DNA of 32,000 nt, from positions 210,001 to 242,000 of the forward strand of contig AP027133.1 in NCBI GenBank assembly GCA_027925325.1, read 5' to 3'. Within the stretch, counting starts at the first letter, position 1. The number at the start of each line of letters is the position of its first letter. This document shows positions 4,803 through 32,000 of the stretch, piece by piece. Made by a program: the position numbers and the translations under genes. Under the pieces are notes generated by a model. That model did no database searches and had not been told where the DNA came from. It saw only the letters and a list, made by a program, of their open reading frames with translations. This stretch comes from Candidatus Saccharimonadota bacterium (GTDB lineage: Bacteria; Bacillota_I; Bacilli_A; Mycoplasmatales; Hepatoplasmataceae).

Positions 4803-4828
4803 AAAAAAACAGAGAATTATCTCTCTGT
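4803..4828 (-). terminator. Rho-independent terminator candidate downstream of SDR paralog 1
   Basis: 7-bp stem ACAGAGA/TCTCTGT (4809-4815 and 4822-4828) with a 6-nt loop. On the minus strand it is followed by a T6 run (A6 at 4803-4808). A T-rich run also follows on the plus strand, so it may act in both directions. Confidence 0.5.
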
Positions 4829-4896
4829 TTTTGTCTTTTTATTATTTATTAAAAAATTTAAATTAATATATTAATTTATAATTTTATTTTGCTAAA

Positions 4897-5655: not shown

Positions 5656-5673
5656 ATTTTTTTCACTTTCACA

Positions 5674-6225: not shown

Positions 6226-6233
6226 TTTAGATG

Positions 6234-6998
6234 TTAAATTCAACGGATATTATCATATTTTCCGTTTGATAATTTTAAATTGTTATCTTCAATTATGCCA
6301 AGAATTTTATCATTCTTATATAATTTATAACCTTCATTTGCTAAATCCTTTGCAGATTTAGCTCTTAATTTTTTTTGTTTTTTGTAAGCATTAATTTCTC
6401 AATGCTTATTTTTACTATGAATTAAAGCTTTTTCAATAAATTCACTTTCGGTAGTTGAGGGTGCTAATACTTTTACCTTAATTTTTTTATTTAATCGTTT
6501 TAATTGTTTTGCAACACTTTCTGTTCATGAGGCGACAAATACTTTGGAGGCAGAATAAGTAATCTCACCTGAGATAATATTATATCCTGCAGTAGAAGAA
6601 ACATTTATTAATTGCACATCTTTATCCAAATTATCTTTAATAAACATAATTGAAAGAGTTGTTAAGGCTTTGATATTTAAATCAAGCATTTTTTCAATTT
6701 TTTTAATATCAGAATTTCAAGGAAGATTTACATCACCTGATCCAGCATTATTTATAAATACTTCAATATCATATTCTTTAGTTTTCGCATAAAATTTTTG
6801 TACTTCATCTGAATCTAAGAGATCAACCGTATAAATAATAATATCAACATTATATTTATCTTTTAATTCTCCCTTAATAATTTTTAATAAATTAGTTCTT
6901 CTCGCTGCTAATATTAAATTGTGCCCTTCTTTTGCAAACTTTTCTGCTAACGCCTTTCCAATTCCAGAACTTGCTCCGGTAATTAAAACATATTTCAT
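6234..6998 (-). CDS. Short-chain dehydrogenase/reductase, paralog 2 (254 aa)
   Basis: I hand-translated it continuously from ATG 6998 with TGA=Trp. Motifs: TGASSGIGKA, NNAG, YSASK. It ends ...NIRWI with TAA at 6234-6236. Strong SD (AAAGGAG) upstream. Confidence 0.87.
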
Positions 6999-7050
6999 TT
7001 CTAATCTCCTTTCCCTAAATAAATTATATTATTATTTATAAATTAATTAA

Positions 7051-7076
7051 AAAGCAGTGAATTAATTCACTGCTTT
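7051..7076 (-). terminator. Perfect 26-nt palindrome / hairpin between SDR paralogs 3 and 2
   Basis: AAAGCAGTGAATT/AATTCACTGCTTT is self-complementary and flanked by T/A-rich runs on both strands. It lies 250 nt downstream of the SDR3 stop and 52 nt upstream of the SDR2 start. Confidence 0.4.
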
Positions 7077-7325
7077 CATTTTTAGAATTTTAAATCACAA
7101 GCTAGATTTCTAAAATAAATGACCTATTTTTTTTAAACATATTTAGCAATAATTATATACTTATAATTTATTTGTCTTTATAAAATTATCTCGCATAAAT
7201 AGAGAAAGTTATTACTAATATTTAATTTTATATTAAAATTAATATCCTTTTAAAATTGATTTTTAGGGTTGTGTATGATCTCCAAATCTAATATTATTTT
7301 TATTTATTTTATTTTTATAAATATT

Positions 7326-8087
7326 TTAAAACATATTAAATCATTTATTTTTTAATTTAAATTTATTTGTAAATGGATTTACAATTCCAATTACTTTATC
7401 GCTTTGATATAACTGGTATGTAAAATAAGCTAATTCATCTGCATTTTTGAAACGACTTTCGGTTCTTTTTTTTGCTTCTGAAACATCCTTTTCATTTAGT
7501 TTTGTTTTTTTGAAAGCACGTTCAAAAAATTCTGTTTTTGTTGGGCCAGGAGCTAATATTTTTACTTTTAATTTAGCCTTTTCTTGTTTTAGGAATCTTG
7601 CAATTCCTTCACTAAATGTTGAAACATAGAATTTAGTAGAAGAATATGCTATTCCATTTGATCAAATAAAATATCCTGCTGTTGAAGCTACATTTATGAT
7701 TTGTGTTTCTTTATTTAAGTTATCTTTAATAAAAAGTAATGATAAGTCGGTTAGGGTTTTGATATTTAGATCTAACATTTTATTGATCTTTAAAATATCA
7801 CTTTCTCAAGGTTTATTAATGTCACCAAATCCGGCATTATTTATCAAAACCTCAAGATCATATTTTTTAATTTGATCATAAAAATCGAAAACATTATCAG
7901 TAATTGTTAAATCATAAACAAAAACCAATACTTTAACTTCAAATTTTTTTTCAAGATCTTTTTTTAATTCATTTAATAATTCTTCTCGTCTTGCGACAAT
8001 AATGATATTGTGTCCTTTTGCAGCAAAATAAGTTGCTATTGCCTTTCCGATTCCAGAACTAGCGCCAGTTACTACTGTATATTTCAT
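7326..8087 (-). CDS. Short-chain dehydrogenase/reductase, paralog 3 (253 aa)
   Basis: N-terminus from track ORF 7806-8087 (TGASSGIGKA, NNAG), extended through TGA codons. The C-terminus ...KFKLKNKWFNMF ends with TAA at 7326-7328. SD AGGAG upstream. Plus-strand ORF 7447-7629 is an antisense shadow. Confidence 0.85.
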
Positions 8088-8158: not shown

Positions 8159-8599
8159 TTAACAATTCGTAGGATTATTTTTAGTATTATTTTTTTCCTC
8201 ATTAATATCTTTAATCTGATTTAAAATTCTTATTATTTCTAATTTATCTTTAATAATTTCTTTTTTAATAATTTCCTCTTGCGGACTTCTATTTTGTAAT
8301 TTTTCTATATTATTATAAATTTCTTCATTTACATTTTCTTTAATTTGCTTTAAAATTTTTCTTCTATCTTCAGATAATTCATTTGCTTTTTCTCCTAATT
8401 CATTTGCTTCTTTTCCTAATTTATTTGCTTTTATTCCTAAACCTAAAGACACAGAAGCAATTATTAAAGAAATAATACTTGAAATTAATTGAACTCATTT
8501 TTGATCAATATAAATTGTTAATAATATCAAAAGAAAAACTAAGATAAGAAAAATTATTACAATTCATTTTCATTTTTTAATAAAATTAATTATTTTCAT
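8159..8599 (-). CDS. Small membrane protein: two predicted TM helices plus a coiled-coil C-terminal half (146 aa)
   Basis: ATG at 8599, with three TGA=Trp codons before track ORF 8159-8452. N-terminus: MKIINFIKKWKWIVIIFLILVFLLILLTIYIDQKWVQLISSIISLIIASVSLGLG. This is followed by the tandem KANKLGKEANELGEKANELSED and a heptad-like K/E/I-rich sequence. TAA at 8159-8161. It starts 28 nt after the upstream gene's stop. Confidence 0.6.
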
Positions 8600-14479: not shown

Positions 14480-14763
14480 TTAATCTTCATCTTGTGGACG
14501 ATCAAGTATTTCAGACATTTTTTTGGTATTTTTTTTCATTTTAATATCAACAAATAATAAAACTAATATTAATATAATTAATATTATTAAAATCGTAATT
14601 ATTAAATATACGATATTTTTTGCAGATTGATTGTCTTCGGTTTTTATCGTTCCATTTTCAGAAATATCTAATGAATCATCTTCTACAATATCTGTAAAAC
14701 TTAAATTAATAAAATTATAGGTAGTATTTGCTTTAAGATTATTAACCTTAAAACTAAATTGAT
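14480..14763 (-). pseudogene. Orphan 3' fragment of the RCC1 surface-protein gene: last beta-module, TM anchor and short cytoplasmic tail, with no start codon
   Basis: Reads ...QFSFKVNNLKANTTYNFINLSFTDIVEDDSLDISENGTIKTEDNQSAKNIVYLIITILIILIILILVLLFVDIKMKKNTKKMSEILDRPQDED, with TAA at 14480-14482. On the minus strand the frame only opens at 14791 and has no initiator. Its upstream partner sequence is present in inverted orientation. Confidence 0.6.
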
Positions 14764-14912
14764 CAAGAAAATGGAACTGTGCAATATCAATTTAGTTTTA
14801 AGGTTAATAATCTTAAAGCAAATACTACCTATAATTTTATTAATTTAAGTTTTACAGATATTGTAGAAGATGATTCATTAGATATTTCTGAAAATGGAAC
14901 GATAAAAACCGA
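14637..14912. repeat. Perfect 127-bp inverted repeat (14637-14763 vs 14786-14912) with a 22-bp spacer
   Basis: I compared the reverse complement base by base and the arms are identical. The match stops at both ends (14764 c vs 14785 t; 14636 vs 14913). Confidence 0.85.
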
Positions 14913-15808
14913 TTCTAATTCTCAACAATTTATTCTTAATGCTGATTATCAAGTTGAATTGCAAAATTTAAATGCAGAAACAAATTATAAAATAGATTCT
15001 ATCAATTATTTTTATCAAAATGGAACTTATAAATATACAATTGATCAAAATATAGTAACTTTTAAAACAGAACCAGCAACACCAGAAATAAAAGCAGATA
15101 CAATTGCCTTAGTTGATAATTCTTTACAAAAAAATCAATTTCAGTATACAATTGAAATTGATAATTTAAAAGCAAATTCTGATAAGACAAATTTTACACA
15201 ATATGATGTAAATGAAGGAATTTGACTTGTTGATCAAGATAATAATTACTATCATTCAACATTTATCGATGCAAAAATAATTTCAAGCGGAACGATAAAT
15301 GGAACACAAAATTATCAATTAACATTTTTACAAAATGATCTTATAAGTGGACAAACTTATCAATTTAATGGAATAAGTATTACCGATCCAAATACATCAA
15401 CAGATGATATTATTAATTTTTCTGATCCATTTATCATTACAACTACAATAATTGATAAAAATTTTGTTAGTGATAGTTTTATTATTGATCAATCCTCAAT
15501 TACAAAAAATTCATTTACTTATACCGTAGCAATTGATAATTTAATTTTAATAAATGAAGATGAGAAAAATCCACAATTTGAAAATTTTAATCTGGATGAT
15601 GGATTATATTTAATCGATAATAATGATGATAGTTACAGTTCAAATTACATCGAGGGAAGTGCTATCAAACTAAGTGAGAACCAAGAAAATGGAACTGTGC
15701 AATATCAATTTAGTTTTAAGGTTAATAATCTTAAAGCAAATACTACCTATAATTTTATTAATTTAAGTTTTACAGATATTGTAGAAGATGATTCATTAGA
15801 TATTTCTG
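14764..15808 (+). pseudogene. Internal body of the RCC1 surface-protein gene (beta-sandwich modules) lying on the opposite strand to its 5' and 3' parts, with no start codon or signal peptide
   Basis: The plus-strand frame (track ORF 14779-15225, extended through TGA) opens at 14758 without an ATG. It encodes ...SNSQQFILNADYQVELQNLNAETNYKIDSINYFYQNGTYKYTIDQNIVTFK...QFSFKVNNLKANTTYNFINLSFTDIVEDDSLDIS. The 1045-bp segment begins and ends with the same 127-mer (14764-14890 = 15682-15808), so the unit is 918 bp = 306 codons. Confidence 0.6.
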
Positions 15809-15935
15809 TGTATATTTATAAGTTCCATTTTGATAAAAATAATTGATAGAATCTATTTTATAATTTGTTTCTGCATTTAAATTTTGCAATTCAACTTGAT
15901 AATCAGCATTAAGAATAAATTGTTGAGAATTAGAA
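15682..15935. repeat. Two abutting 127-bp repeat copies: 15682-15808 (direct copy of 14764-14890) and 15809-15935 (reverse complement of 14913-15039)
   Basis: Aligned by eye, both are identical over exactly 127 nt, with mismatches immediately outside each block. Confidence 0.85.
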
Positions 15936-17764
15936 ACATTATTATCGATATTTGTATAATTTAATTCTATTTTCCTTTGATCATCTGTGTAATTATTAAT
16001 ATTAAAATCAGCGCTATTTTGATCTAAATTTAAAGCAAAGGTAGCTGTTTCTTCCGCAGCGGAAACAAAATTATAACTAGAAATTAAATAATCTGTTGTA
16101 ATTTGTGGTTGATTTAATTCAAATTCATCTTCATTAATTATTATTTTAGTGAAATTATAACTTTGACCATACATAATATTATTTACTTGATAATAATATT
16201 GATCATTATTTATATTAGATTTATCTGTAATAAAAGTTGTTGTATAACTAACATCATTCTGATCAATTAAAATTACTTCAGGAGATTGATTTATGATATC
16301 TTTATAATCATTTAAAATAATATTTAATTCAATATTATTATTATCTTCGTAATAAAATTCTGTTTTATTAATAAAGAAATCAAAAGAAGAATCAATTAAT
16401 GTTGGAACATGTTTATCAACTGTACTATTATCACCAAGTTGTCCATCGGCATTATGTCCCCACATATACAAGGTATCGGCATATCCATCTAAATCAATAT
16501 CAATCGTAATACCACTATGAAGTGAACCTAAACTTAAATCAATAACATTCCCATCTCAATCACTCTCTTGTGGGGTTATTTTTGTTGGAACATGTTTATC
16601 GCTTGTATTATTATCACCAATTTGACCCTCACTATTATCTCCTCACACATATAAAGTATCAGCATATCCATCTAAATCTTCATCAATCGTAACACCGCTA
16701 TCATTTGAACCTAAATCTAAATCAATAATATCTCCACCTCAATTACTTTGTCCCTGCGGAGTTATTTTTGTTGGAACATCTTTATTAATTGTACTATCAT
16801 CACCAAGTTTTCCATCACTATTATCTCCTCACATATACAAAGTATCAGCATATCCATCTAAATCTTCATCAATTGTAATCCCACTATGATTTCCGCTTAA
16901 ACTTAAATCAATAATATCTCCATTTCAATCACTTTGCCCTTGTGGAGTTATTTTTGTCGGAGTATCTCTATTAAATACAGTATTATCACCAATTTGACCC
17001 TCATTATTATCTCCTCACATATATAATGTATCGGCATATCCATCTAAATTGGTATCAATCGTAACACCGCTATGACTTCCACTTAAACTTAAATCAATAA
17101 TATTTCCACTTCAATCACTTTGTCCTTGTGGAGTTATTTTTGTTGGAACATCTTTATTAATTGTACTATCATCACCAAGTTGTCCACTACCATTATATCC
17201 TCACATATATAATGTATCGGCATATCCATCTAAATCGGTATCAACTGTAGCACCACTATTATTTGTACCTAAATCTAAATCAATAATATCTCCACCTCAA
17301 TCACTTTGCCCTTGTGGAGTTATTTTTGTCGGAACATGTTTATCGCTTGTACTATTATCACCAAGTTGGCCATAATTATTTCTTCCTCACATATATAATG
17401 TATCGGCATATCCATCTAAATCGGTATCAATTGTAACGCCACTATGATATGATCCTAAACTTAAATCAATAACATTCCCACCTCAATCACTTTGCCCTTG
17501 TAGGGTTATTTTTGTTGGAACATGTTTATCACTTGTACTATTGTCACCAATTTGTCCATATTGATTATCTCCTCACATATAAAGAGTATCTGCATAAAGA
17601 TCATTATCGGTATCAACTGTAGCACCACTATTATTTCACCATGTTTTAAGTGACAGAATTTTATCGTTTGTACTTAATTCTTTATTTTTTAAGTGATTTG
17701 GTTTATTTAAACCTATGCTTAAAAATAAAAAAGGTATCAAAAGAAGTGAAAATATTTTTTTCAT
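15770..17764 (-). CDS. Signal peptide + 7-bladed RCC1-like propeller surface protein, 5' portion. The ORF ends 39 nt past the rearrangement junction (664 aa as assembled)
   Basis: ATG at 17764 (MKKIFSLLLIPFLFLSIGLNK...). Seven repeats of the type DGYADTLYMWGxNxxGQ[IL]GDNST..K.VPTKITPQGQSDWGG.IIDL, with Trp mostly encoded by TGA. It joins track ORF 15770-16471. The last 12 residues (QKYLMNHLLQYL) are antisense of the 127-bp repeat. Confidence 0.75.
16400..17640 (-). repeat. Tandem ~180-nt (60-aa) coding repeats = seven RCC1 blades with high mutual DNA identity
   Basis: Strings such as gcatatccatctaaatc and cctcacatata recur with a ~180-nt period. Confidence 0.7.
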
Positions 17765-21442: not shown

Positions 21443-24400
21443 TTAATTTTTTTTTTTATTGATTTTTTCGATATCTTTTTTAATATCTTTATTTTCTTTA
21501 TTAATCTCTTTTACTATTTTTGATAATTCTGAGATCTCTGATGTTAATTTTTCTGTTTTATTAGGTCCTCTAGTTACTCTTTTTACTCTTACTACTGGTT
21601 TAGAATTACTACTTGAATTATTTAATTTTGTAATATTATTTTTAATATCTTTATTTTCTTTATTAATCTCTTTTACTATTTTTGATAATTCTGAGATCTC
21701 TGATGTTAATTTTCTTGTTTCGTTACTTCTTTTATTAACTTTAGGAACAGATCTGGTACTATTTGAAGTATTTAATTTTTTTACTATTTTTGATAACTCT
21801 AAAACCTCTTCTGTTAATTTTTCTGTTTTATTAGGTTTTTTAGCTGTCTTTTTTTTCTTATTTGCAATATTATTTTGTTCTGAATTATTTATTTCTTCAA
21901 TATTAATTTTAATATCTCTATTTTCTTCATCTATTTTTCTTACTATTTTTGATAATTCTGAGATTTCTTCAGTTAATTTTTTTGTATCATCGGGTTTCTT
22001 GCTAGTTGCTTTTCTTGTTTTTCTTTTTCTAGTTGCCGGTGCTTTTTTTTCAACTACAGGTTGTTCTTTTTGTTTACTTAAATCATCTACTTTTTTAGAT
22101 AATTCTAAAATTTCTGATGTTAATTTTTCAGTATATTTTGAATTATCTGGATTAACTTCTTTTGCTTCTTTTTCTGGTTGAGTTTGTTCAAGGTTGTAAA
22201 CTGTTAAAGGTTGAGGTTCTTCTTCTTTTGTTTCATTTTTAATTTCCTCTTTCTTTTCTTCTGTAATTTTTTCCTTCTTTTTCTTTTTTTCTTTTTCAGA
22301 ATCATTTTGTGACAATAAAATAAGTAACAATATTAAGATTAATAATAATATTATTATAATAATTAAAATTCATCATCATGGAAAACAGCAATCATCATCG
22401 CTATTACTTACATCCGTATGAATTATTCCATCATCTATATCTTCAAATGGTCCATTTTGATTAAATCCTATGTAAATAAATTGATAGTCAGTATCTGGTT
22501 TTAGTCCATTAACTTCAAATGTAAATCTATAAATTACAGTAGTATCTTCTGTACCATCACTTATATATTTTCCACTATTATTTACATAAGTTGAACTATA
22601 ATTAGTATCATTAATATCTTTTAAATATAAATCTGAATATGGATCAAAATTATAAAAAGTTGGATTTGCTTTTACATCTTGTAATTGAGAATTTTCTAAT
22701 AATAAATTATCAACTTCAATTGTATATTGAAAAGATGTATCGGTGATTGTATTTTCAAGAATTGTAAATGTGTAACCAAGAATTATCGGATCTATATATC
22801 CATCATCTGGGATAATAACATCTAGTGATGGATTTATAGGAATAATATTAGAATCATCTGGTCCTGTTGGTTGATCGAAACTGATTCCATTAAATTGATA
22901 TTCCTCATCATCTTTAAGTCCACTTATTTTATAAGTCATTAAATAATTATAAGCACCATTATAATCACTATTTTCATAAAATTCTTGCGTAATAAAAGTT
23001 GCTTTATAAATATCTCCATTACTATCAACTAATCACATTCCATCATTTACATCATAATTTGTAAAATTTGTTTCATCGATGTTAGGAATTAAATTGTCTA
23101 TTTCAACTGTAAACTGAAAAGAATTTGAAGTTATTGTATTTTCAATTACTTCGATTGTTTCGGTTTGAATTATTGCATCAACACTTTTTGTTTCAAATTT
23201 TTTAGATTCTTGTTCAATTTGATATTTATAATTTCCATCTTCATAAAAATACTGAATTGAATCTATTTGATAATTTGTTTCAACATATAAATCTGTTAAT
23301 TCAATTTCTTTTAATGCATCTATTGTAAATTCTTTATTATAAGAAATATCTCTATCAAGATCGGTGTAATTTACTTTTGTTTTTAATTGATCGCTTGTAT
23401 AGTCACTAAAAGTAACATTATTATTTTGATTTAAATCTAATGTAATTGTCGCTGTTTCTTCAGTTACTGATTCAATAGAATAATCAGAAATAATATAATC
23501 AGTTGTGAATCCCTCATCATCTAAAGGAAAGGATTCTTCATTAATTATTATTTCTTTAAAGTAATAATTTGTTCCTCTTTCAATTCCATTTACTTGATAG
23601 TAATATTGGTCGTTAGGAATATCTGAATTTGAAGAAATAAAGGTTGTTGTATAAGTATTATCTTCACTATCTATTAATAAAACAGTAGGAGGTTGATTGA
23701 TAAGATTATTGTAATCATATAATTTTAGATCTATATATAACTCATCATCATTAAAAATAAAATTTAAATCAGCAATAGAAAACGAATTATCAGTATATAT
23801 AGGGATAAAATAAAGTTGATCAGGATTATTATTATTATTTCCATCGGCTATTTGCCCATATGTATCACTTCCACATGCGTAAAAACTATCAACAATTCCA
23901 TCTCCATTATTATCGGCGATAATACCAGTACTACTAAATCCGTTTGATAATGAATAAATAGATCCAAATCAAGATGATTGATTTTCTGGATAAACAATTG
24001 TTGGTCTAGAAACATCATTTGTTGTACCTACACCAATTTGTCCATTTGAGTTTCCGCCTCACATGTAAACAGTGTCACCTAAATTATCTGAATTTGAATC
24101 AATTATTACTCCAGAAGTGTAACTACCTTTTTCAAATTGTAAAATACTTCCTCCTCAATCACCTGATTGAGGAGTAATCATTATTGGATAATATCTAATA
24201 ATTTGTGTCCCATCACCAATTTGTCCATAATTATTTTGCCCTCAACTATATATTGAATCGCCTACTCCATCTAGATCAGTATCAATTAATACACCTGAAT
24301 TAAAAAATCCTAATGTTAAATCAATTATATCTCCATTTCAATTACCGCTCTGTGGACTAATAATTGTAGGATATTGGAGATATTCATAAGATGGTCCTTT

Positions 24401-25195
24401 TCCAATTTCGCCATATGTATTATCGCCTCACATATACAAGGTATCGGCAAATCCATTTAAATCAGTATCAACACTAACTCCACCAAAACGAGAACCTAAT
24501 TTTAAATCAATTATATTTCCATTTCAATCATTACTTTCGGGAGTGATAATTTCTGGATATAAAATTTTTGTTTCTTCTTTTGGTGATATTTCATAACTTG
24601 TATTTTCACCTCAACCGTATATTAGATCACCGAATCCATCATTATTAGTATCTATTAAAATGGCTGTATTTGCATACATTAATGATAAAGTTATAATATT
24701 TCCGCCTCAATCACTTTGCCCTTGTGGATTAATGATTTGTGGAGTTTCAACAAAACCTGTTGTTTCTCCATTTCCCATTTCTCCACGATAATTACTTCCT
24801 CACATGTAAAGAGTATCGGCATATCCATCTAAATCAGTATCAACTGTAGCTCCACTAAATAATTGAGCTATTTCCAAATTAATTACATTTCCGCCTCAAT
24901 CACTTTGCCCTTGTGGTGTAATTTCTACTGGTGAAAATTTATCAGTAGAAGTTCCATCACCAATTTGATAATTATTATTTTGCCCCCACATATAGATGGT
25001 ATCTCCATTTTGATCACCATCAGTATCGACAATTGCTCCATTTGTATTTCCATCTGCTGAAAATTCTAAATCTGTTACCGTTGCATTTTCTAAATTTGCA
25101 AAATTTTTTGTTTTTTTAAAATTTGAATTTCCATAACCATACCCAAATGTGAGTAATATTGGAAAAATAATAATTGCAATAATGAATTTTTTCAT
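21443..25195 (-). CDS. Type I membrane protein: signal peptide, 7-bladed RCC1-like propeller, beta-sandwich-like modules, one TM helix, and a ~290-aa Lys/Glu-rich cytoplasmic repeat tail (1250 aa)
   Basis: Track ORFs 24896-25195, 22376-22939 and 21443-22330 share one frame (the offsets are multiples of 3). I hand-translated the gaps without meeting TAA or TAG. Seven YxWGxNxxGQIG-type blades. The TM region is ...DDDCCFPWWWILIIIIILLLILILLLILL. The tail has five copies of KLT[SE]EI[SL]ELSK[IK]V. Confidence 0.8.
21470..22130 (-). repeat. Five coding repeats in the cytoplasmic tail (KTEKLTSEISELSKIVKEINKENKDIKNNI type)
   Basis: The last two copies are nearly identical at DNA level (about 21480-21570 vs 21645-21735). 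Earlier copies are more diverged. Confidence 0.65.
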
Positions 25196-25440
25196 AACCC
25201 CTAAAAAAAATAAATTTAATTTACATTCCCATTTTCTTAAAATTATAGCAACTTTTTTTAAAAAAAAATAAATATTGTTAAAAATAAAAAATTTGCTTTT
25301 ACTTTTTTAAAAATTATATTTTATAAATATAAATTGATTATTTGTATTTTGTAAATTTTATTTAATGTTTCTTTTTTTGGAATTATTTTTTTCTATTTAA
25401 GATAAAAATGTGTATTTAATAGTATTTGAAAAATTAAAAA

Positions 25441-25500
25441 TAATATTTATTTTTATTTTTTCATTATAATTTATTTGAGTTTTAATTATTAATTTAAATT
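25441..25500 (+). promoter_or_regulatory. Conserved upstream block with a TATAAT box (25465-25470), shared with 30745-30805 upstream of the paralogous giant gene
   Basis: aatatttatttttattttttcattataatttatttgagttttaattatt aligns with aatattttttattttttattataatttgtttaagttttaattattt. In both cases the box lies about 210-220 nt upstream of the ATG. Confidence 0.35.
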
Positions 25501-25691
25501 AATGATTAAGAATTAAAAAGATAAAAATTAATCAATTTATTATAAAAAATTTAATTAATTGATAATTTTACCTTTAGAGTTAATAGATAGTGTTAAAATT
25601 TTGCTTAATTAAATTAAGTAATAGCGTTTTTATTTAAATGTAAATTTATATATATTTGAATAAAAATAATATATTTGGAATAAATAAAATT

Positions 25692-28600
25692 ATGGAAAAA
25701 AAAATTAAATTAAATTTTGATAAAAATAAAATTGTTAAGAATGATGCAAAAAAAGAAAAAGAAGAAATTTTGTCATTTATAACTGATTCTGCACATGTAC
25801 AGACTATAAATCCTTTAAAAGAAGGAGGAGATTCTCAACAAGAAGTAAATGAAAAAATTTTGCAAAATATTAACTCTATTGTAGATGGTAGTATTCCTGT
25901 AAAAGTTAGTACTTCATCAATAAATGCAAATGATTCTATTAATGAGAATGGTTTAACACAAAAGGAAGCAAATGAAAATAGTAAACAAAATTTTGATCTT
26001 TTGACATCTAAAATAGATGGATTAAATTCTGATATTGTAGATATCAACAATAAAATTGATAATTTTGTTTTTAATGCACCTACTTCAGATGTTTCAATTT
26101 CTGATCCTATATTAGAAGGTGGATCTACCCAAGAGGAAGTTAATAAAAATAATAAACAAAATTTTGATCTTTTAAATGATCAAATTGATAATTTTAATAA
26201 TGGTACTTATCCAATTAGAACCACAACATCATTTACTAATACTATAAATTCTAATTTAGAAAATGGTACAACACAAGAAGAGGTTAATAAAAATGATAAA
26301 AAACTTATTGATTTAATTGTTAACGGTGATACTTTAATTAAAACTTCTTCTTCTTATGTTGATACAATTAATTCTCTTCAAGAAGGAGGATCTAAACAAG
26401 AAGAAGTAAATAAAAATAATAAACAAAAAATTAGTGATATCAATTCTTTGATTATAGAAATGGATGATAAAATCTCTGATTTTAAAATCGAAGCTGATAC
26501 ATCTAAAATTAGTTCAACCGATGTCACATTGGAAGGTGGAACAACACAACAAGAAATTAATGTAAAGGGTGAGGTTAATTTAAGTCAAATAAATTCTGAA
26601 ATTTCTGAAATTAACGATAAAATTTCTTGTCTTGATTGTTTTGATGGAAATATTGATACATCATTAGTTAGTACATCTGATAAAGTTTTGGAAGGAGGAA
26701 TAAACCAAAGGGAAGTAAATGAAGTAAATAAGAAAAATCTTGAAAATATAAATATTTTGGTAGATGATATAGATTGTAAGATTGATGATCTTGAGATAAA
26801 AACTACTACTTCAAATGTTATCGCAGGCGATGGCTTTTTTGAGGGTGGTCCAACACAACAAGAGATAAATGAATCTAATAAAGAAAGTATATTTACTTTA
26901 AATTCCGAAATAATTTCAATAAATTCTGAAATTTCTGATCTTAGCGATAAAATTGATTGTTTTGAATGTGATTGCAATGATGATTCTGATGATAATAATG
27001 ATGTTATTGATACTAAATCTCTTAATGCTGTTGATTCTGATTTAGAAGGTGGAACAACACAACAAGAAATCAATCAAAATATGAAAGAATCGATCATTAA
27101 TCTTATAAATGATGGAGTTAAACCTGGAAATACTTCAACTGTTCCTACAATTAATCTTATTTTAGAAAATGGCGCAACACAAGAAGAAGTAAATAAAAAC
27201 ACCAAACAAGCAATCGACGGAATTAGTGATCAAATTGATGGAATTTCAATAGAAAATGATACTTCAGCTGTTTCAACTTTTAATGCAATTTTAGAAAATG
27301 GTGTAACACAAGAAGCGGTAAACAAAAACACCAAACAAGCAATTGATGATATCGTCGATCAAATTGATGGACTTCCAACAGATTTTGATACTTCATCTGT
27401 TACTACTGTTAATTCTATTTTAGAAAATGGTGCAATACAAGAAAATGTTAATAAAAACACAAAAGATGCAATCGATGATATTAATGATAAAATTGATAAT
27501 TTTGAGTGTAATTGTATTACTTCTTCTATTACAACAGTTGATGAAATTTTAGAAAATGGCGCAACACAAGAAATAGTAAATAAAAACACCAAGCAAGCAA
27601 TCGATGATATTAATGAGGAAATTGATGGACTTCCAACATCTGTTGCGACCTCTTCTACTATTACAGTTGATGAAACTTTAGAAAATGGAAAAACACAAGA
27701 AATAGTAAATAAAAACACCAAACAAGCAATTAATGATATTGGCGATCAAATTGATGGACTTCCAACAGATATTGCTACTTCATCTGTTGCAACAGTTGAT
27801 GAAACTTTAGAAAATGGTGCAACACAAGAAATAGTAAATAAAAGTAATAAGCAAGCTTTTGATGAGATAAGTTATGAAATTAGTGAACTTCCAACAGATA
27901 TTATTACCTCATCTGTTAAAACTTCTGATACGGCATTAGAAAATGGTACAACGCAAGAAGAAGTAAATAAAAATACTAAGCAAGCAATTGATGATATTAA
28001 TGAGGAAATTGATTCACTTCCAACAGATATTGATACACCAGCTATTACTACATTCAATGCAATTTTAGAAAATGGTATAACACAGGAAGCAGTAAATAAA
28101 AATACCAAACAAGCAATCGACGGTATTGATGATCAAATTGGTGAATTATTAGATAAGAATACATCATTTGTTGAAACTGTTAATGCAACTCTAGAAAATG
28201 GTACAACACAAGAAATAGTAAATAAAAACACCAAACAAGCAATTGATGATATTAATGAGGAAATTGATGGACTTCCAACATCTGTTGCGACCTCTTCTAC
28301 TATTACAGTTGATGAAACTTTAGAAAATGGTGCAACGCAAGAAATAGTAAATAAAAACACCAAACAAGCAATTGATGATATTGGCAATCAAATTGACGAA
28401 TTATTAGATAATGACACATCATCTGTTACAACAGTTGATGAAATTTTAGAAAATGGTCCAACACAAGAAGAAGTAAATAAAAAAACCAAACAAGCAATTG
28501 ATGATATTAATGAGGAAATTGATGGACTTCCAACATCTATTGCTACTTCTTCTACTATTACAGTTGATGAAACTTTAGAAAATGGTCCAACACAAGAAAT

Positions 28601-30641
28601 AGTAAATGAAAACACCAAACAAGCAATTGATGATATCGGCAATCAAATTGATGAATTATTAGATAATGACACATCATCTGTTACAACAGTTGATCAAACT
28701 TTAGAAAATGGTCCAACACAAGAAATAGTAAATGAAAACACCAAACAAGCAATCGATGATATCGGCAATCAAATTGATGAATTATTAGATAATGACACAT
28801 CATCTGTTACAACAGTTGATGAAATTTTAGAAAATGGTCCAACACAAGAAATAGTAAATGAAAACACCAAACAAGCAATTGACGATATTAACAATCAATT
28901 AGATGGACTTCCAACAGATATCGTAACTCCTTCTGTTGCAACAGTTGATGAAACTTTAGAAAATGGTGCAACACAAGAAATAGTAAATAAAAACACCAAA
29001 CAAGCAATCGATGATATCGGTGATCAAATTGATAATATTGGGAATTTTTTAACTTCAAATGTTATTGCAGTGGATGATTTATTAGAGGGCGGAGAAATCC
29101 AACAAATCATTAATCAAGATAATAAAAATGTTATTGATTTAATTAATTCTGAAATTATTGATATAAATGAGATAATTAACAATTTTTCTTTAAATCTTAC
29201 ATCTTTTGATTTAACAACAGTTGATGAAACTTTAGAAAATGGTGCAACACAAGAAATAGTAAATGAAAACACCAAACAAGCAATTGATGATATTGGTAAT
29301 CAAATTGATGGACTTCCTACAACAATGATTACCTCATCTGTTATAAGTGTTGATATAACTTTAGAAAATGGCACAACACAGGAAGAAATCAATCAAAATA
29401 ACAAAAATTCGATTGATACTTTAAATCAAGAGATTAGTGATCTTATTGATAGTGGTATTCCTTCAATTGATACATCTTTGCTTAATACTGCTGATGAAGC
29501 TTTAGAAAATGGTACAACACAACAAGAAATTAATCAAAATAACAAAAATTCTCTTGATGATTTGAATTCTGATTTAGTATCAGCTAATGATCAAATTGCT
29601 GATATTATCGATGGTACAGCTGGAGTTAAAATAAATACTAATTATATTTTAGAAGAAAGCACAATACAAAAAATTTTAGAAGATGGTGCAACTCAACAAG
29701 AAATCAATCAAAATAACAAAAATTCTCTTGATGATTTAAATTCTGATTTTGCAAACTTAGATACTGAAATTGATAATATTAACGAGAGAATTGAAAATAT
29801 TAATAGAGATTTTAATACTGCAGATGTAGAATCAATTAATTCTAATGATGAATCTGGATCAGTTCAACAAGAAATTAATCAAAATAACAAAAATTCTCTT
29901 GATGATTTGAATTCTGATTTAGTATCAGCGAATGATCAAATTGCTGATATTATCGATGGTACAATACAAGTTGTAAATAAAACTTCAAATGTTATTCCAA
30001 TTAATCCTGATTTAGAAGGTGGCTCTACACAGAGTGAAGTTAATCAAAATAATAAAAATTCTCTTGATGATTTAAATTCCGATGTAACTACAATAGATTC
30101 TGATATTGATGATATTAATGAAAAAATAGATAGCATTGTTATTACTAAAACGACTCCAAATGTTATTACTGTTGATAGTAATTTAGAAGGTGGAAATACA
30201 CAACAAATAGTTAATGAAACTATACAAAGCGATCTTCAAACTATAGTTTCTAATATCTCTGAAATTATTAATGGTTCAACAACAATAAATATTCAAACAT
30301 CATCTGTTATTCCTGAGGATGTTAGTTTGGAAGGAGGAATAAATCAAGAAGAAATAAATAAAAATAATACTAGAAAAATTTATGATTTACGTTGTGCAAT
30401 TGATGATATTGTACATGGTGTAATTATAATTCCTATTATTACATCAGATGTTAATACGGTTGATGCAATTTTGGAAAATGGTGAAACACAAAGAGAAATT
30501 AATGAAAATAAAAGAAAAATGATAAATTTAATAAATGTTAAAATTAGTAATTTAATTATTACAATAAATACTCTTCAAACAAATATTTCATTTTTATCTT
30601 CTTGTAGTGATTGTAGACTACCTCAAAAAACAATTGCTTAA
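25692..30641 (+). CDS. Giant acidic repeat protein, ~34 repeats of 43-50 aa with core LE[NG]GxTQ[EQ]x[VI]NxNxK (1649 aa). No signal peptide, TM segment or Trp
   Basis: One uninterrupted ORF. I chose ATG 25692 (MEKKIKLNFDKNKI) over the track's TTG 25656 because the paralog starts MEKQTKIDFDKYKI. I counted 34 core motifs in the translation. All minus-strand ORFs inside it are antisense shadows of the repeats. Confidence 0.85.
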   Translation: MEKKIKLNFDKNKIVKNDAKKEKEEILSFITDSAHVQTINPLKEGGDSQQEVNEKILQNINSIVDGSIPVKVSTSSINANDSINENGLTQKEANENSKQNFDLLTSKIDGLNSDIVDINNKIDNFVFNAPTSDVSISDPILEGGSTQEEVNKNNKQNFDLLNDQIDNFNNGTYPIRTTTSFTNTINSNLENGTTQEEVNKNDKKLIDLIVNGDTLIKTSSSYVDTINSLQEGGSKQEEVNKNNKQKISDINSLIIEMDDKISDFKIEADTSKISSTDVTLEGGTTQQEINVKGEVNLSQINSEISEINDKISCLDCFDGNIDTSLVSTSDKVLEGGINQREVNEVNKKNLENINILVDDIDCKIDDLEIKTTTSNVIAGDGFFEGGPTQQEINESNKESIFTLNSEIISINSEISDLSDKIDCFECDCNDDSDDNNDVIDTKSLNAVDSDLEGGTTQQEINQNMKESIINLINDGVKPGNTSTVPTINLILENGATQEEVNKNTKQAIDGISDQIDGISIENDTSAVSTFNAILENGVTQEAVNKNTKQAIDDIVDQIDGLPTDFDTSSVTTVNSILENGAIQENVNKNTKDAIDDINDKIDNFECNCITSSITTVDEILENGATQEIVNKNTKQAIDDINEEIDGLPTSVATSSTITVDETLENGKTQEIVNKNTKQAINDIGDQIDGLPTDIATSSVATVDETLENGATQEIVNKSNKQAFDEISYEISELPTDIITSSVKTSDTALENGTTQEEVNKNTKQAIDDINEEIDSLPTDIDTPAITTFNAILENGITQEAVNKNTKQAIDGIDDQIGELLDKNTSFVETVNATLENGTTQEIVNKNTKQAIDDINEEIDGLPTSVATSSTITVDETLENGATQEIVNKNTKQAIDDIGNQIDELLDNDTSSVTTVDEILENGPTQEEVNKKTKQAIDDINEEIDGLPTSIATSSTITVDETLENGPTQEIVNENTKQAIDDIGNQIDELLDNDTSSVTTVDQTLENGPTQEIVNENTKQAIDDIGNQIDELLDNDTSSVTTVDEILENGPTQEIVNENTKQAIDDINNQLDGLPTDIVTPSVATVDETLENGATQEIVNKNTKQAIDDIGDQIDNIGNFLTSNVIAVDDLLEGGEIQQIINQDNKNVIDLINSEIIDINEIINNFSLNLTSFDLTTVDETLENGATQEIVNENTKQAIDDIGNQIDGLPTTMITSSVISVDITLENGTTQEEINQNNKNSIDTLNQEISDLIDSGIPSIDTSLLNTADEALENGTTQQEINQNNKNSLDDLNSDLVSANDQIADIIDGTAGVKINTNYILEESTIQKILEDGATQQEINQNNKNSLDDLNSDFANLDTEIDNINERIENINRDFNTADVESINSNDESGSVQQEINQNNKNSLDDLNSDLVSANDQIADIIDGTIQVVNKTSNVIPINPDLEGGSTQSEVNQNNKNSLDDLNSDVTTIDSDIDDINEKIDSIVITKTTPNVITVDSNLEGGNTQQIVNETIQSDLQTIVSNISEIINGSTTINIQTSSVIPEDVSLEGGINQEEINKNNTRKIYDLRCAIDDIVHGVIIIPIITSDVNTVDAILENGETQREINENKRKMINLINVKISNLIITINTLQTNISFLSSCSDCRLPQKTIA
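25790..30520 (+). repeat. Coding tandem-repeat array. The central units (about 27100-29300) are 129-nt (43-aa) copies at very high identity, with a 255-nt two-unit super-period
   Basis: Example: DETLENGPTQEIVNENTKQAIDDIGNQIDELLDNDTSSVTTVD is repeated almost verbatim at about 28560-28690 and 28690-28820. The two back-to-back 255-nt antisense ORFs in the track (28133-28387 and 28388-28642) reflect the super-period. Confidence 0.85.
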
Positions 30642-30832
30642 AACTTTTATTATAGAATGAATAATATATTTTTATTTTGAAGAATATTTTAGTAGATTAT
30701 TTTTGAATTAACTTTAAAAAATAATAAATTGTATTTATTTATAAAAAATAAAAAATATTTTTTATTTTTTATTATAATTTGTTTAAGTTTTAATTATTTA
30801 TTATTTAATTTAATTAAATAATTAAAATTAGG

Positions 30833-30879
30833 AAATAGACTATTAAGATATCTTAGAATGATGCCTTGATAGTCTATTT
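30833..30879 (+). other. Nested hairpin in the leader/intergenic region of the second giant gene
   Basis: 10-bp stem AAATAGACTA (30833-30842) / TAGTCTATTT (30870-30879). It encloses an inner palindrome TAAGAT/ATCTTA and is followed by TTTT. It could be the terminator of the first giant gene or a leader structure of the second. Confidence 0.35.
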
Positions 30880-30988
30880 TTAGAATTAATTGATCATTTA
30901 TTAAATTAAAGTAATTTTATTAAATGATTTAAATATAGATGTTGATTAAAAATTTTATTAAAAAATAATAAATGGGAAAAATTAAATT

Positions 30989-32000
30989 ATGGAAAAGCAA
31001 ACAAAAATAGATTTTGATAAATATAAAATTAATAGCGAAAATAATAAATATAGAATTAATATAAATAATTTAGAGCAAAAATTAAAAAGTTCAACATCTA
31101 TGACTGATTCTGCACACGTACAGACTATAAATCCTGTAACTGAAGGCGGAGGTTTTCAACAAGAAGTTAACGAAAATATTATAGAAGGTCTTTCTTCACT
31201 TATTGGCGGGGAAGTTCCTTTAGATATTAATACATCTGCTGTTAATACTGTTGATGAAACTAATGAAGGTGGATCAACACAAGAAAATGTTAATAAAAAT
31301 AATAAAACAATTATTGATAATTTAAATTCTGATATTACAACAATAAATTCTGATATTGATGATTTAAATGAAAAAATTGATAATTTTTCTATAGATGTAG
31401 TTAGTTCAGAAATTAGTTCTGTTAATTCTTCTTTAGAAGGTGGATCAACACAAGAAGCAGTTAATAAAAATAATAAACAAAATATTGATGATCTAAATAA
31501 TGATATTAATGATCTTATTAACGGAAATACACAAATAAAAATTAATTCTTCATCTATTGATACATTAACTCCTTCTTTAGAAAATGGTGCAACACAAGAA
31601 GAAGTAAATAAAAATAATAAGCAACTTATTGATTCAATTATCAATGGTGAAAATCCAGCAAAAACAATTTCCTCATCTATTGATACAGAAAATTCTTCAT
31701 TAGAAAATGGTACAACACAAGAAGAAGTAAATAAAAACACAAAAGAAACAATTGATAATATTAATGATCAATTAGATAGTTTTGATGAAAGAATCAACTC
31801 TCTTGATGCAGGAATAAATACATCAAAAGTAAATACAACAAATTATTCATTAGAAGGCGGATCAACACAACAAGAAATTAATATAAAAAATAAAATTGTT
31901 TTTGATTCAATAAATTCTGAAATAGAAGATATTAATAGCAAGATTGATTGTATAGATGAAGGAATCGATACTTCTATAATTAATTCTATTGATTCTGTAT
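30989..32000 (+). CDS. Second giant repeat protein, paralog of 25692-30641; 5' part only, continues beyond the window
   Basis: Hand translation from ATG 30989 is open to the window end (337 codons). It shares the N-terminal TDSAHVQTINP..EGG motif and the LE[NG]G[SAT]TQEE[VI]NKNNK repeats. It is missing from the track only because no stop codon is reached. Confidence 0.8.
   Translation, partial: MEKQTKIDFDKYKINSENNKYRININNLEQKLKSSTSMTDSAHVQTINPVTEGGGFQQEVNENIIEGLSSLIGGEVPLDINTSAVNTVDETNEGGSTQENVNKNNKTIIDNLNSDITTINSDIDDLNEKIDNFSIDVVSSEISSVNSSLEGGSTQEAVNKNNKQNIDDLNNDINDLINGNTQIKINSSSIDTLTPSLENGATQEEVNKNNKQLIDSIINGENPAKTISSSIDTENSSLENGTTQEEVNKNTKETIDNINDQLDSFDERINSLDAGINTSKVNTTNYSLEGGSTQQEINIKNKIVFDSINSEIEDINSKIDCIDEGIDTSIINSIDSV

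What the first reader, a model, noticed from the sequence alone, without database searches (positions are those of the whole stretch)
25692..32000. Pair of giant repeat proteins built from an unrecognised ~45-aa LE[NG]GxTQExVNKNxK repeat
Seen in sequence: a 1649-aa ORF and a second paralog (at least 337 aa, truncated by the window) consist almost entirely of 43-50 aa repeats. I counted 34 in the first gene. Each repeat has the layout [ST]S.V.TVDE.LENG.TQE.VNKNTKQAIDDI..QIDGLPTDI. That is a Ser/Thr-rich strand-like piece, an invariant G-x-T/x-Q-x-x-[VI]-N knob, then a short heptad-like I/L-D-D-I-N-x-x-I-D segment. Both proteins share an N-terminal TDSAHVQTINP motif. Neither has a signal peptide, lipobox or TM helix. 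There are no Trp residues at all (no TGA or TGG in 4.9 kb), and the composition is strongly acidic. Cys residues occur almost only as pairs or triplets inside linker segments (CLDCFDG, CFECDCNDD, FECNC, SCSDCRL). Inference: alternating knob and coiled-coil periodicity with Cys clusters is what one expects of an elongated, probably oligomeric fibre, such as a phage tail-fibre-like structure, an adhesin stalk or a cytoskeletal filament. However, I cannot match the motif to any repeat family I know (not ScARP/sarpin, not trimeric autotransporter motifs, not the phage ATxxxGLMSxxDK repeat). For a wall-less cell, a huge repeat protein with no export signal is puzzling, whether it is surface-exposed or internal.
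Basis: partly seen in the sequence, partly recalled or inferred. Interest (0 to 1): 0.8.

Follow-up and report, generated by a model that had tools for sequence, protein, structure and literature searches.

The report
Phage-fibre-like giant proteins of Hepatoplasma
Two neighbouring genes of the woodlouse gut symbiont 'Candidatus Hepatoplasma scabrum' encode very long proteins built from a ~43-residue 'cap plus helix' unit that I found elsewhere only in sister Hepatoplasma species and in fibre-like proteins of small mollicute phages, so they are most likely phage-derived fibres that the cell now makes itself, probably for attachment to its host.

Summary
The window comes from the 'Ca. Hepatoplasma scabrum' genome (wall-less, TGA=Trp). 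Gene p1 (25692-30641, 1649 aa) holds 34 copies of a 40-68 aa unit. The truncated gene p2 (30989->) is a colinear paralogue.

The unit matches nothing in Pfam, NCBIfam, PHROGs, PADLOC, PDB sequences or Foldseek libraries. A profile search of 1.84 billion proteins found only seven real relatives. Three are giant ORFs of H. scabrum and H. vulgare. Four are proteins on ~10-kb, low-GC, TGA=Trp contigs. One of those contigs is a clear phi29-like podophage, and its repeat protein sits next to the connector gene. H. crinochetorum has an orthologue at the syntenic site.

AlphaFold2 (pLDDT 94) models each unit as a small cap plus a 20-residue helix. The helix has a conserved hydrophobic seam.

Best reading: these are chromosomal fibre-shaft proteins related to phage fibres, probably parallel oligomers. 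p1 is a shaft-only version that stops where its paralogues start Ig-like arrays. The role (host attachment, stalk core or anti-phage decoy) and the export route are unresolved.

The giant ORFs were already reported by Kawato et al. 2024. The unit's structure and the phage link appear to be new.

The parts
25465..25470 (+). TATAAT (-10-like) inside a TTTTTTCATTATAAT block, 222 nt before the p1 start. The same block precedes p2 and the H. crinochetorum orthologue.
   Evidence: Sequence read and three-way alignment. Promoter function is inferred only; the consensus scan is at background level.
25692..30641 (+). p1, probably HPPSJP_2230: 1649-aa acidic protein made of 34 units, with no signal peptide or TM segment.
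   Evidence: Locus-tag inference.
25692..25781 (+). Lys/Glu-rich N-terminal 30 residues (MEKKIKLNFDK...), followed by TDSAHVQTINP as the first, degenerate unit. This region is conserved in p2, HPPSJP_2250 and H. crinochetorum.
25782..27125 (+). Units 1-9, of mixed length (41, 57, 48, 41, 50, 53, 50, 68, 40 aa), with Cys clusters at the ends of the longer helices. Colinear with p2, HPPSJP_2250 and the H. crinochetorum orthologue.
27126..29465 (+). Units 10-27. Most belong to the near-regular 42/43-aa array (units 25 and 27 are 50 and 47 aa) with consensus xxTSSVxTVDExLENGxTQExVNKNTKQAIDDIxxQIDxLxxx. The 129-bp DNA repeats at 27161-29033 lie within it. This expansion is specific to this gene.
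29466..30563 (+). Units 28-34. Units 28-33 are longer (48-58 aa) with extended helical segments.
30564..30641 (+). C-terminal tail ...TLQTNISFLSSCSDCRLPQKTIA plus stop. The CxxC aligns with the junction where HPPSJP_2250, the H. crinochetorum orthologue and phage protein P0014 begin their Ig-like domains. p1 ends there.
30773..30778 (+). TATAAT (-10-like) in the same conserved block, 211 nt before the p2 start.
   Evidence: Function inferred.
30989..32000 (+). p2, probably HPPSJP_2240: first 337 aa of a colinear paralogue, 50% identical to p1 over the aligned stretch, with 6 units spaced as in p1. Cut off by the window end.
21443..25195 (-). Context: divergently transcribed 1250-aa RCC1-repeat membrane protein (HPPSJP_2220), with a signal-peptide-like N-terminus, a TM segment and a repetitive Lys-rich tail. 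The same head-to-head gene pair exists in H. crinochetorum.

Best explanation
p1 and p2 belong to a Hepatoplasma-specific family of chromosomal fibre proteins. Their building block, which I call the 'LEGG unit', is shared with fibre-like proteins of small phages that use the mollicute genetic code.

Each unit is a small cap followed by an N-capped helix of about 20 residues. The cap is a Ser/Thr strand stapled by a beta-bridge to the conserved Thr18, a one-turn helix DxxLE, and an invariant Gly. Positions 22, 26, 30, 33, 37 and 40 of the helix form a conserved apolar seam.

I infer that several chains, most likely three as in phage fibres, align in parallel and in register. The helices would then form short coiled-coil segments separated by cap collars, with Cys clusters acting as staples. 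For p1 that gives a rod of roughly 150-200 nm.

The family's full layout is: N-terminal peptide, LEGG array, CxxC junction, Ig-like array. p1 is a shaft-only member whose array has expanded to 34 units.

The most likely use is as long fibres for holding on to the host's midgut-gland epithelium, either on the cell surface or in the stalk. How a protein with no signal peptide would reach the outside is not explained.

Shown: the repeat anatomy, the restricted distribution, homology to proteins on phage and phage-like contigs, conservation across three Hepatoplasma species, and the monomer model of the unit. Inferred: oligomeric state, rod length, location and role.
For: Organism. Exact matches of FtsZ, OTC, carbamate kinase and GapN to the Ca. 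H. scabrum MAG.

Anatomy..

Structure. The AF2 two-unit model has mean pLDDT 94.1, with helices at 11-14 and 19-38 and bridge residues at 7 and 18 of each unit.

Distribution. The profile search of 1.84e9 proteins gave 8 hits, 7 of them real. They are H. vulgare HPAVJP_3240 and HPAVJP_3220, H. scabrum HPPSJP_2250, and four proteins from contigs L001-L004.

The contigs. L001-L004 have 23-28% GC and in-frame TGA codons. L003 encodes:
- a phi29-type upper collar connector (phrog_2038, 2e-23; PF05352, 46 bits against a cutoff of 25.6);
- an encapsidation ATPase (phrog_2150, 2e-22; tblastn hits to encapsidation proteins of small podophages of Clostridium, Streptococcus and Rhizobium, e.g. phiCPV4);
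- the start of a protein-primed DNA polymerase (phrog_1907, 2e-11).
Its 5-unit protein lies directly upstream of the connector gene.

Homology to p1 and p2. Phage-contig protein P0014 is 39% identical to p1 over 258 aa (5e-25) and 43% to p2 over 185 aa.

A second shared module. The Ig-like domain is shared between HPPSJP_2250 and L002 proteins: 41-48% identity, E 4e-13 to 4e-19.

Conservation. The H. crinochetorum Av orthologue (1935 aa) sits beside the RCC1 gene in the same head-to-head arrangement and is 42% identical to p1 over 758 aa, E 1e-130.

Not in a prophage. The H. vulgare cluster is flanked by rpsT, fmt and a permease gene. No phage genes lie in the 25 kb upstream in the window. Leclercq 2014 found no phage genes in H. 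crinochetorum, by keyword search of annotated genes.

The gene is intact and constrained. It is a 4.9-kb ORF in 26% GC DNA, with dN/dS of 0.52-0.60 against the orthologue and paralogue.

Support for shaft-only status. The p1 C-terminus aligns with the CxxC junction that precedes the Ig-like domains in relatives.
Against: - No oligomer model could be run. A four-unit monomer model built from a p1/p2-only alignment was poor (pLDDT 66, pTM 0.21) and showed no packing between units.
- There is no signal peptide, lipobox or TM segment, so surface exposure has no known route.
- Only L003 is demonstrably a phage. L001, L002 and L004 have no PHROG or Pfam hits.
- The direction of transfer (phage to cell or cell to phage) is unknown.
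- dN/dS of 0.5-0.6 is high, and dS is unreliable in such AT-rich DNA.
- The genes downstream of p2 in H. scabrum could not be read.
- No expression data exist.
Confidence: 0.5

Rival explanations
1. Intracellular cytoskeletal rod. The fibres stay in the cytoplasm and stiffen the stalk-like appendage of Hepatoplasma, as the coiled-coil protein HMW2 does in the Mycoplasma pneumoniae attachment organelle. They might be tethered to the cytoplasmic tail of the neighbouring RCC1 membrane protein.
For: No export signal in p1, p2, HPPSJP_2250 or the H. vulgare giants. The proteins are acidic and rich in helical segments. The genus is described as 'stalk-forming' in the title of Wang et al. 2004, as cited. 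There is a conserved head-to-head pairing with an RCC1 membrane protein that has a long repetitive tail after its TM segment.
Against: No similarity to any known mollicute cytoskeletal family. Paralogues carry Ig-like arrays, and bacterial Ig-like arrays are usually extracellular. The Cys clusters would be reduced and of little use in the cytoplasm unless they bind metal. Nothing links the fibres to the RCC1 tail beyond gene adjacency.
Confidence: 0.2
2. Ordinary virion fibre genes of an integrated or degraded prophage, made for phage particles and not for the cell.
For: Homologues sit among structural genes of a phi29-like phage. The Ig-like and LEGG modules are both shared with phage-like contig L002. 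The lack of a signal peptide is normal for virion proteins.
Against: There are no phage structural or replication genes in the 25 kb upstream or around the H. vulgare cluster. The locus is syntenic in two species next to a cellular gene. The N-terminal peptide differs from the N-terminal domain shared by the two adjacent L002 fibre genes. Proteins of 1649 to 4617 aa would be enormous fibres for ~10-kb phages. Leclercq 2014 reports no phage genes, by keyword search.
Confidence: 0.1
3. Anti-phage decoy. Cytoplasmic shaft-only proteins co-assemble with the fibre subunits of infecting phages through the shared LEGG units and so spoil virion assembly.
For: Cytoplasmic location would explain the missing export signal. 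p1 contains only the module shared with phage fibres and lacks both their N-terminal domain and any distal domain. Copy number and sequence change fast between species.
Against: No PADLOC match apart from a weak coiled-coil-type hit of p2 to LmuB (17 bits). Identity to phage units is only 39-43%. The paralogues' long Ig-like arrays are not explained. There is no precedent that I know of.
Confidence: 0.06
4. Host-first origin. The unit arose in a Hepatoplasma surface protein, and the phages captured it, for instance to bind homotypically to the host's fibres. On this view the cellular proteins are not phage-derived.
For: Most known copies of the unit are cellular. Phage receptor-binding genes are known to be mosaic (general knowledge). 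P0017 and P0018 keep the unit within a 51-residue N-terminal stretch that is 61% identical but differ completely downstream.
Against: Four divergent phage or phage-like lineages carry the unit. Several modules are shared, not one. No phylogeny could be made from such short units.
Confidence: 0.12
5. Non-functional repetitive DNA or an assembly artefact of long-read sequencing.
For: The MAG was assembled from nanopore reads, and repeats are hard to resolve (Kawato 2024). The exact p1 translation is absent from the public protein collection.
Against: The 1649-codon ORF is intact in DNA of ~26% GC. An orthologue exists in an independently sequenced species. Four positions are invariant in 40 units. 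dN/dS is below 1.
Confidence: 0.02

Closest known systems
'Large, repetitive ORFs' of Hepatoplasmataceae (Kawato et al. 2024, PMC10928387)
   Same: These are the same genes or their direct paralogues: tandem clusters of 3-4 giant ORFs per genome, with similarity mostly to paralogues and Ig-like folds in HPPSJP_2240 and HCTKY_2320. The authors propose a role in host adhesion.
   Different: The text I searched does not describe the 43-aa unit's structure, does not connect the ORFs with phages (the word 'phage' appears only in defence contexts), and reports that the H. vulgare units could not be modelled.
Head fibre gp8.5 of phage phi29 (PDB 3QC7)
   Same: A homotrimeric fibre of a small podophage whose stem is a repeating helix-turn-helix supercoil. 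The phi29 capsid protein also carries a C-terminal Ig-like domain (PMC6542822). L003 is a phi29-like phage, and the partial first ORF of L002, whose identity is unconfirmed, ends in an Ig-like domain.
   Different: No sequence or Foldseek match. gp8.5 is 280 aa and has a beta-barrel base. The unit here has a cap plus one helix and reaches 34 copies in a cellular gene.
Phage T4 fibritin (gp wac), a segmented trimeric coiled coil (from my own knowledge)
   Same: A parallel coiled coil divided into about a dozen short segments by loops. It has no signal peptide and forms an elongated fibre.
   Different: Not homologous. Fibritin's loops are short and irregular and it ends in a foldon domain. Here the interruptions are a conserved structured cap of about 20 residues, and no terminal folding domain is seen in p1.
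PblA/PblB of Streptococcus mitis phage SM1
   Same: Phage tail-fibre proteins that also act as bacterial adhesins to host cells. They are released by phage-induced permeabilisation and bind back to living cells (as summarised in PMC4508584). This is a precedent for fibre-as-adhesin without classical secretion.
   Different: They are encoded in an active prophage and are unrelated in sequence. No lysis system or prophage is seen here.
Trimeric autotransporter adhesins (YadA, BadA)
   Same: Long trimeric stalks of coiled-coil segments interrupted by small connector motifs, often with polar core residues.
   Different: They need a signal peptide, a C-terminal beta-barrel anchor and an outer membrane. 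None of these is present, and the host has no cell wall.
Mycoplasma pneumoniae terminal-organelle protein HMW2 (from my own knowledge)
   Same: A large (about 1800 aa), acidic, coiled-coil-rich protein of a mollicute with no signal peptide, used in an attachment structure.
   Different: No sequence relationship. HMW2 is mostly continuous coiled coil and has no phage relatives.

Membership tests
Hepatoplasmataceae large repetitive ORF clusters (Kawato 2024) | Giant repetitive ORFs arranged in tandem in a Hepatoplasmataceae genome | tested here: met
   p1 and p2 are adjacent on the + strand. HPPSJP_2250 (P0013) is a third paralogue with the next-but-one locus tag after HPPSJP_2220.
Hepatoplasmataceae large repetitive ORF clusters (Kawato 2024) | Similarity mainly to paralogues and to other Hepatoplasma species | tested here: met
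   Three of the seven real hits are Hepatoplasma proteins. The orthologue in H. crinochetorum scores E 1e-130.
Hepatoplasmataceae large repetitive ORF clusters (Kawato 2024) | Ig-like (beta-sandwich) arrays | tested here: not met
   Not met for p1, which ends at the CxxC junction without any Ig-like domain. For p2 the relevant part lies outside the window. The arrays are present in P0013 and the H. crinochetorum orthologue.
Phage virion fibre (tail or head fibre) | Encoded among phage structural genes | tested here: not met
   No phage genes in the window or beside the H. vulgare cluster. The feature is met for homologue P0015 on L003.
Phage virion fibre (tail or head fibre) | N-terminal domain that docks to the virion | tested here: not met
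   The two adjacent L002 fibre genes share an N-terminal segment (TDNEYIV.YNINNI.YLY) that is absent from p1, p2 and P0013. Those proteins share their own MEK...TDSAHVQTINP start instead.
Phage virion fibre (tail or head fibre) | Homotrimeric parallel assembly | not testable with these tools
   Only monomer AlphaFold2 was available. The conserved apolar seam is compatible with trimers but does not prove them.
Phage virion fibre (tail or head fibre) | Sequence homology to fibre proteins of bona fide phages | tested here: met
   The L003 protein matches p1 with 31% identity over 238 aa, E 9.5e-13, and the unit profile at E 2e-20. L003 is a phi29-like phage. There is no match to any phage in INPHARED or IMG/VR.
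Trimeric autotransporter adhesins | Signal peptide and C-terminal YadA-type membrane anchor | tested here: not met
   No Pfam hit and no hydrophobic N-terminus.
Mollicute cytadherence or cytoskeletal proteins and Spiroplasma ScARP adhesins | Match to the family's curated domain models | tested here: not met
   No Pfam or NCBIfam hit above threshold.
Known anti-phage defence proteins (PADLOC) | Match to a PADLOC model | tested here: not met
   p1 and P0013 have none. p2 has a 17-bit coiled-coil-type hit to LmuB.

The most novel reading that the evidence does not exclude
The shaft-only protein p1 may be a cytoplasmic decoy. By offering 34 copies of the very unit that the symbiont's own podophages use to assemble their fibres, it could co-assemble with incoming phage fibre subunits and poison virion assembly. 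That would be a defence built from a domesticated phage part, and it would also explain why the protein has no export signal.
Probability: 0.06. Interest if true: 0.85.

Novelty: new variant of a known kind. Interest (0 to 1): 0.55.

Why it matters
Hepatoplasma genomes are about 0.6 Mb, yet each keeps a cluster of giant repeat genes, so these are probably central to life on the woodlouse midgut-gland epithelium.

Showing that their building block is shared with fibre proteins of phages that use the mollicute code does four things:
- It gives a concrete structural hypothesis: a segmented fibre made of cap-plus-helix units.
- It points to the first candidate phages of this symbiont lineage.
- It offers a case of exchange between phage fibres and cellular giant proteins in a wall-less bacterium.
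- It sharpens the question of how, or whether, such proteins leave a cell without a signal peptide.

The unit is also a repeat family and small fold with no database entry.

Tried and rejected
Family and structure libraries:
- Pfam, NCBIfam and PHROGs on p1 and p2 gave only sub-threshold or composition-driven hits. The 'Enkurin' hit has no domain that passes on its own.
- PADLOC gave only a weak LmuB hit.
- PDB by sequence found nothing. By profile, the only lead was a non-significant match of GxTQQEIN to residues 68-86 of an Acinetobacter phage tailspike (8opz, E 0.067).
- Foldseek of both models against PDB and BFVD found nothing with E below 1.

Homologue searches:
- The search for homologous proteins failed with p1 (8000 low-complexity candidates, none scoring) and with the p2 N-terminus.
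- The exact p1 sequence, with either the ATG or the upstream TTG start, is not in the protein or contig indexes. The H. scabrum record is not indexed either, so p2 could not be extended.

Collection scans:
- Two genome-contig scans found nothing. The first chose poor patterns; the second searched for the TDSAHVQTINP motif.
- Degenerate EGGxTQxE[IV]N scans of IMG/VR and the metagenome collection gave only single chance matches.
- tblastn of p1 and P0014 against 50,697 phage genomes found no match.

Phage identity of the other contigs:
- It could not be confirmed for L001, L002 and L004.

Recalled resemblances that did not hold up:
- The C-termini of the H. vulgare giants to the phage tail-collar domain: no Pfam support.
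- The C-terminal domain of P0014 (residues 421-713) to modules in HPAVJP_3220: E 0.006 only.

Other:
- Sample accessions of the phage contigs are not mentioned in any held paper.
- The many antisense ORFs across the repeats are by-products of the repeat and were ignored.


Full report
Where the window comes from. With the standard bacterial code the window breaks into short ORFs. With TGA read as Trp the ORFs become long and contiguous. Four housekeeping proteins translated that way are exact matches to proteins of the metagenome-assembled genome of 'Candidatus Hepatoplasma scabrum' Ps-JP (FtsZ = HPPSJP_2040, and others). This is a wall-less mollicute from the woodlouse Porcellio scaber. The 1250-aa RCC1-repeat gene just upstream of the finding is HPPSJP_2220. 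A third paralogue recovered later is HPPSJP_2250. p1 and p2 are therefore very probably HPPSJP_2230 and HPPSJP_2240.

The observation. It holds in every checkable respect.
- p1 (25692-30641) encodes 1649 aa with no Trp codon of either kind.
- A motif scan finds 34 units in p1 and 6 in the visible 337 aa of p2. The first five spacings are identical in the two proteins: 41, 57, 48, 41, 50.
- An HMM of the units gives 34 hits of 41-73 bits in p1. A profile made only from p2's units scores p1 at 1121 bits. Shuffled p1 gives 0.11 motif matches on average.
- Four positions (E14, G16, Q19, N23) are invariant in all 40 units.
- The central array is also a DNA tandem repeat: 129 bp, 14.6 copies, 78% matching, with a two-unit super-period.
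- The protein is acidic (pI 4.05) and has no hydrophobic N-terminus or credible TM segment. Nine of its eleven Cys lie in four clusters.

What the unit looks like. A first AlphaFold2 run used four units and an alignment of p1 and p2 windows only. It gave helices joined by uncertain linkers (pLDDT 66). A second run used two units and an alignment that also held units from HPPSJP_2250 and two phage-contig proteins. It gave mean pLDDT 94. In each unit, residue 7 is bridged to residue 18, residues 11-14 (DxxLE) form one helical turn, and residues 19-38 form a helix.

Column statistics show a strictly apolar seam at positions 22, 30, 33, 37 and 40. Position 26 lies between them, giving a 3-4-4-3-4-3 spacing when the invariant Gln19 is included. 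A conserved seam on a solitary 20-residue helix is what one expects if chains pair along their length. That is my reason for proposing a parallel oligomer, and it is an inference. The Cys clusters sit at the C-terminal ends of the longer helices.

Is it a known family? No. Pfam, NCBIfam, PHROGs, PADLOC and PDB sequence and profile searches give nothing significant. Foldseek finds nothing for either model. The only lead is a 16-bit match of GxTQQEIN to a helix near the N-terminus of an Acinetobacter phage tailspike.

Relatives. A profile of the 40 units was run against one representative of every 50% cluster of about 15 billion proteins. It returned eight proteins, one of them a spurious eukaryotic repeat. 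The seven real ones are:
- two giant ORFs of 'Ca. H. vulgare' (4617 and 2838 aa);
- HPPSJP_2250 of H. scabrum (740 aa);
- four proteins of unknown origin.

The last four lie on contigs of 9.6-11.4 kb with 23-28% GC and in-frame TGA codons.

Contig L003 is a phi29-like podophage. It has an upper collar connector (phrog_2038, 2e-23; Pfam GP10 above its cutoff), an encapsidation ATPase (phrog_2150, 2e-22; tblastn hits to encapsidation proteins of small podophages of Clostridium, Streptococcus and Rhizobium) and the N-terminus of a protein-primed DNA polymerase. Its five-unit protein lies directly before the connector gene.

L001 and L004 are related to each other. Each has a 30-nt terminal overlap, which suggests a complete circular element. 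Their unit-bearing proteins match over the first 51 residues (61% identity) and are unrelated downstream, while neighbouring genes are 78-94% identical. That pattern is typical of receptor-binding proteins.

L002 carries two adjacent fibre-like genes. One of them, P0014, has this layout: N-terminal domain, units, a YYTKSEVD motif, a Cys pair, an Ig-like domain, and a distal domain. I could not confirm phage identity for L001, L002 or L004 with any library.

How close are cell and phage proteins? P0014 is 39% identical to p1 over 258 aa (5e-25) and 43% to p2. HPPSJP_2250 matches P0014 twice, in the unit array (38%, 6e-28) and in the Ig-like domain (41%, 4e-13). Its Ig-like domains are 39-48% identical to the C-terminus of the first, partial ORF of L002. 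At least two separate modules are therefore shared.

Conservation in the genus. Starting from the GapN orthologue, I fetched the H. crinochetorum Av chromosome. An RCC1-repeat gene (1223 aa) and a 1935-aa gene lie head to head there, just as in the window. The visible 747 aa of the large gene begin MEK...TDSAHVQTVNP. They are 42% identical to p1 over 758 alignment columns (E 1e-130) and hold at least 12 units and a Cys cluster. After an ICTGC junction they run into Ig-like sequence.

The unit spacing of the first eight or nine units is colinear in p1, p2, HPPSJP_2250 and this orthologue. The regular 43-aa array of p1 is therefore a later, gene-specific expansion.

The C-terminus of p1 (…SCSDCRLPQKTIA) aligns with the junction that precedes the Ig-like arrays in the others and in phage protein P0014. 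p1 is a shaft without the distal part.

The H. vulgare cluster (4617, 2877 and 2838 aa in tandem) is followed by a permease gene, rpsT and fmt. Nothing in the 25 kb upstream of p1 is phage-like.

Pairwise dN/dS against the orthologue and paralogue is 0.52-0.60. That means constrained but fast-evolving, with the caveat that dS is unreliable at this base composition.

Each of p1, p2 and the orthologue is preceded by the same TTTTTTATTATAAT block about 210-220 nt upstream, a TTTAGARTTAAT box, and AAATTAAATTATGGAA at the start. This suggests separate transcription with long leaders.

What is already published. Kawato et al. [quoted passage not shown] They found MEME repeats of 11-195 aa, modelled Ig-like folds in HPPSJP_2240 and HCTKY_2320, could not model the H. 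vulgare units, and suggested adhesion. In the text I searched they make no link to phages. Leclercq et al. 2014 found no phage genes in H. crinochetorum by keyword.

Interpretation. The best-supported account is that these are chromosomal fibre proteins related to the fibres of mollicute podophages. They are built from a cap-plus-helix unit and probably assemble as parallel oligomers. Their presence in three species with 0.6-Mb genomes, beside genes for surface proteins, favours a role in holding on to the host epithelium or in the stalk.

The missing export signal is not explained. Three possibilities remain open:
- Release and re-binding, as with the phage-fibre adhesins PblA/PblB of Streptococcus mitis.
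- An internal, cytoskeletal role.
- A cytoplasmic decoy role against phage assembly.

The direction of gene flow between phage and cell is also open.

Noticed in passing
window 14637-15935: There are perfect 127-nt inverted repeats (14637-14763/14786-14912 and 14913-15039/15809-15935) and a perfect 127-nt direct repeat (14764-14890/15682-15808). They lie at the 3' end of the 664-aa RCC1-repeat gene (15770-17764, minus strand). A + strand ORF (14758-15849) repeats that protein's C-terminal peptide and continues beyond it. This looks like an invertible segment that could switch the C-terminal part of a surface protein, or else a long-read assembly artefact.
   Followed up: partly
L003:1-10697 (JGI 3300037460, Ga0392326_0001141): A phi29-like podophage contig that uses TGA=Trp (28% GC). 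It encodes a connector, an encapsidation ATPase, a collagen-like protein and the start of a protein-primed polymerase. It is a candidate mollicute phage with no close relative in INPHARED.
   Followed up: partly
L001:1-9946 and L004:1-9601: Two related, apparently circular elements (30-nt terminal overlap) of 9.9 and 9.6 kb, with 23% GC and TGA=Trp. None of their proteins matches PHROGs or Pfam. Their small unit-bearing proteins match over the first 51 residues but have unrelated C-termini.
   Followed up: partly
L112:1-18517 (H. vulgare AP027131) and L002:2669-4060: A second repeat type...NPxEGINPWKTxIDxN..., fills much of the H. vulgare giant ORFs. It also occurs once in the 463-aa fibre-like protein of L002 (41% over 54 aa, E 7.5e-5). 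This would be a further module shared by cell and phage-like proteins.
   Followed up: partly
window 25430-25697, 30735-30994; L110:18940-19189: A conserved upstream block (TTTTTTATTATAAT, then TTTAGARTTAAT, then AAATTAAATTATGGAA at the start codon) precedes p1, p2 and the H. crinochetorum orthologue. It implies leaders of about 210-220 nt.
   Followed up: partly
window 21443-22330 (C-terminal part of the RCC1 gene, minus strand): After its TM segment, the 1250-aa RCC1 membrane protein has a Lys-rich tail of about 330 residues with five copies of a unit like KTEKLTSEISELSKIVKEINKENKDIK. It is presumably cytoplasmic. It might be a docking site, but nothing was tested.
   Followed up: no
window 2366-4063 and 8159-8599: A GmrSD_N (DUF262) protein (E 2e-24) and a small 2-TM protein with a sub-threshold SLATT_4 match (25.8 bits against a cutoff of 27). 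Both are possible defence genes.
   Followed up: no
window 4184-8087: Three tandem short-chain dehydrogenase paralogues lie on the minus strand. The first is fused to an N-terminal domain that is duplicated as a separate 174-aa gene next to it.
   Followed up: no
window 25692-32000: The exact p1 translation is absent from the 15-billion-protein collection, and word-index searches with p1 and p2 returned nothing although the paralogue P0013 is in the collection. Negative results from that index are unreliable for this kind of sequence.
   Followed up: yes
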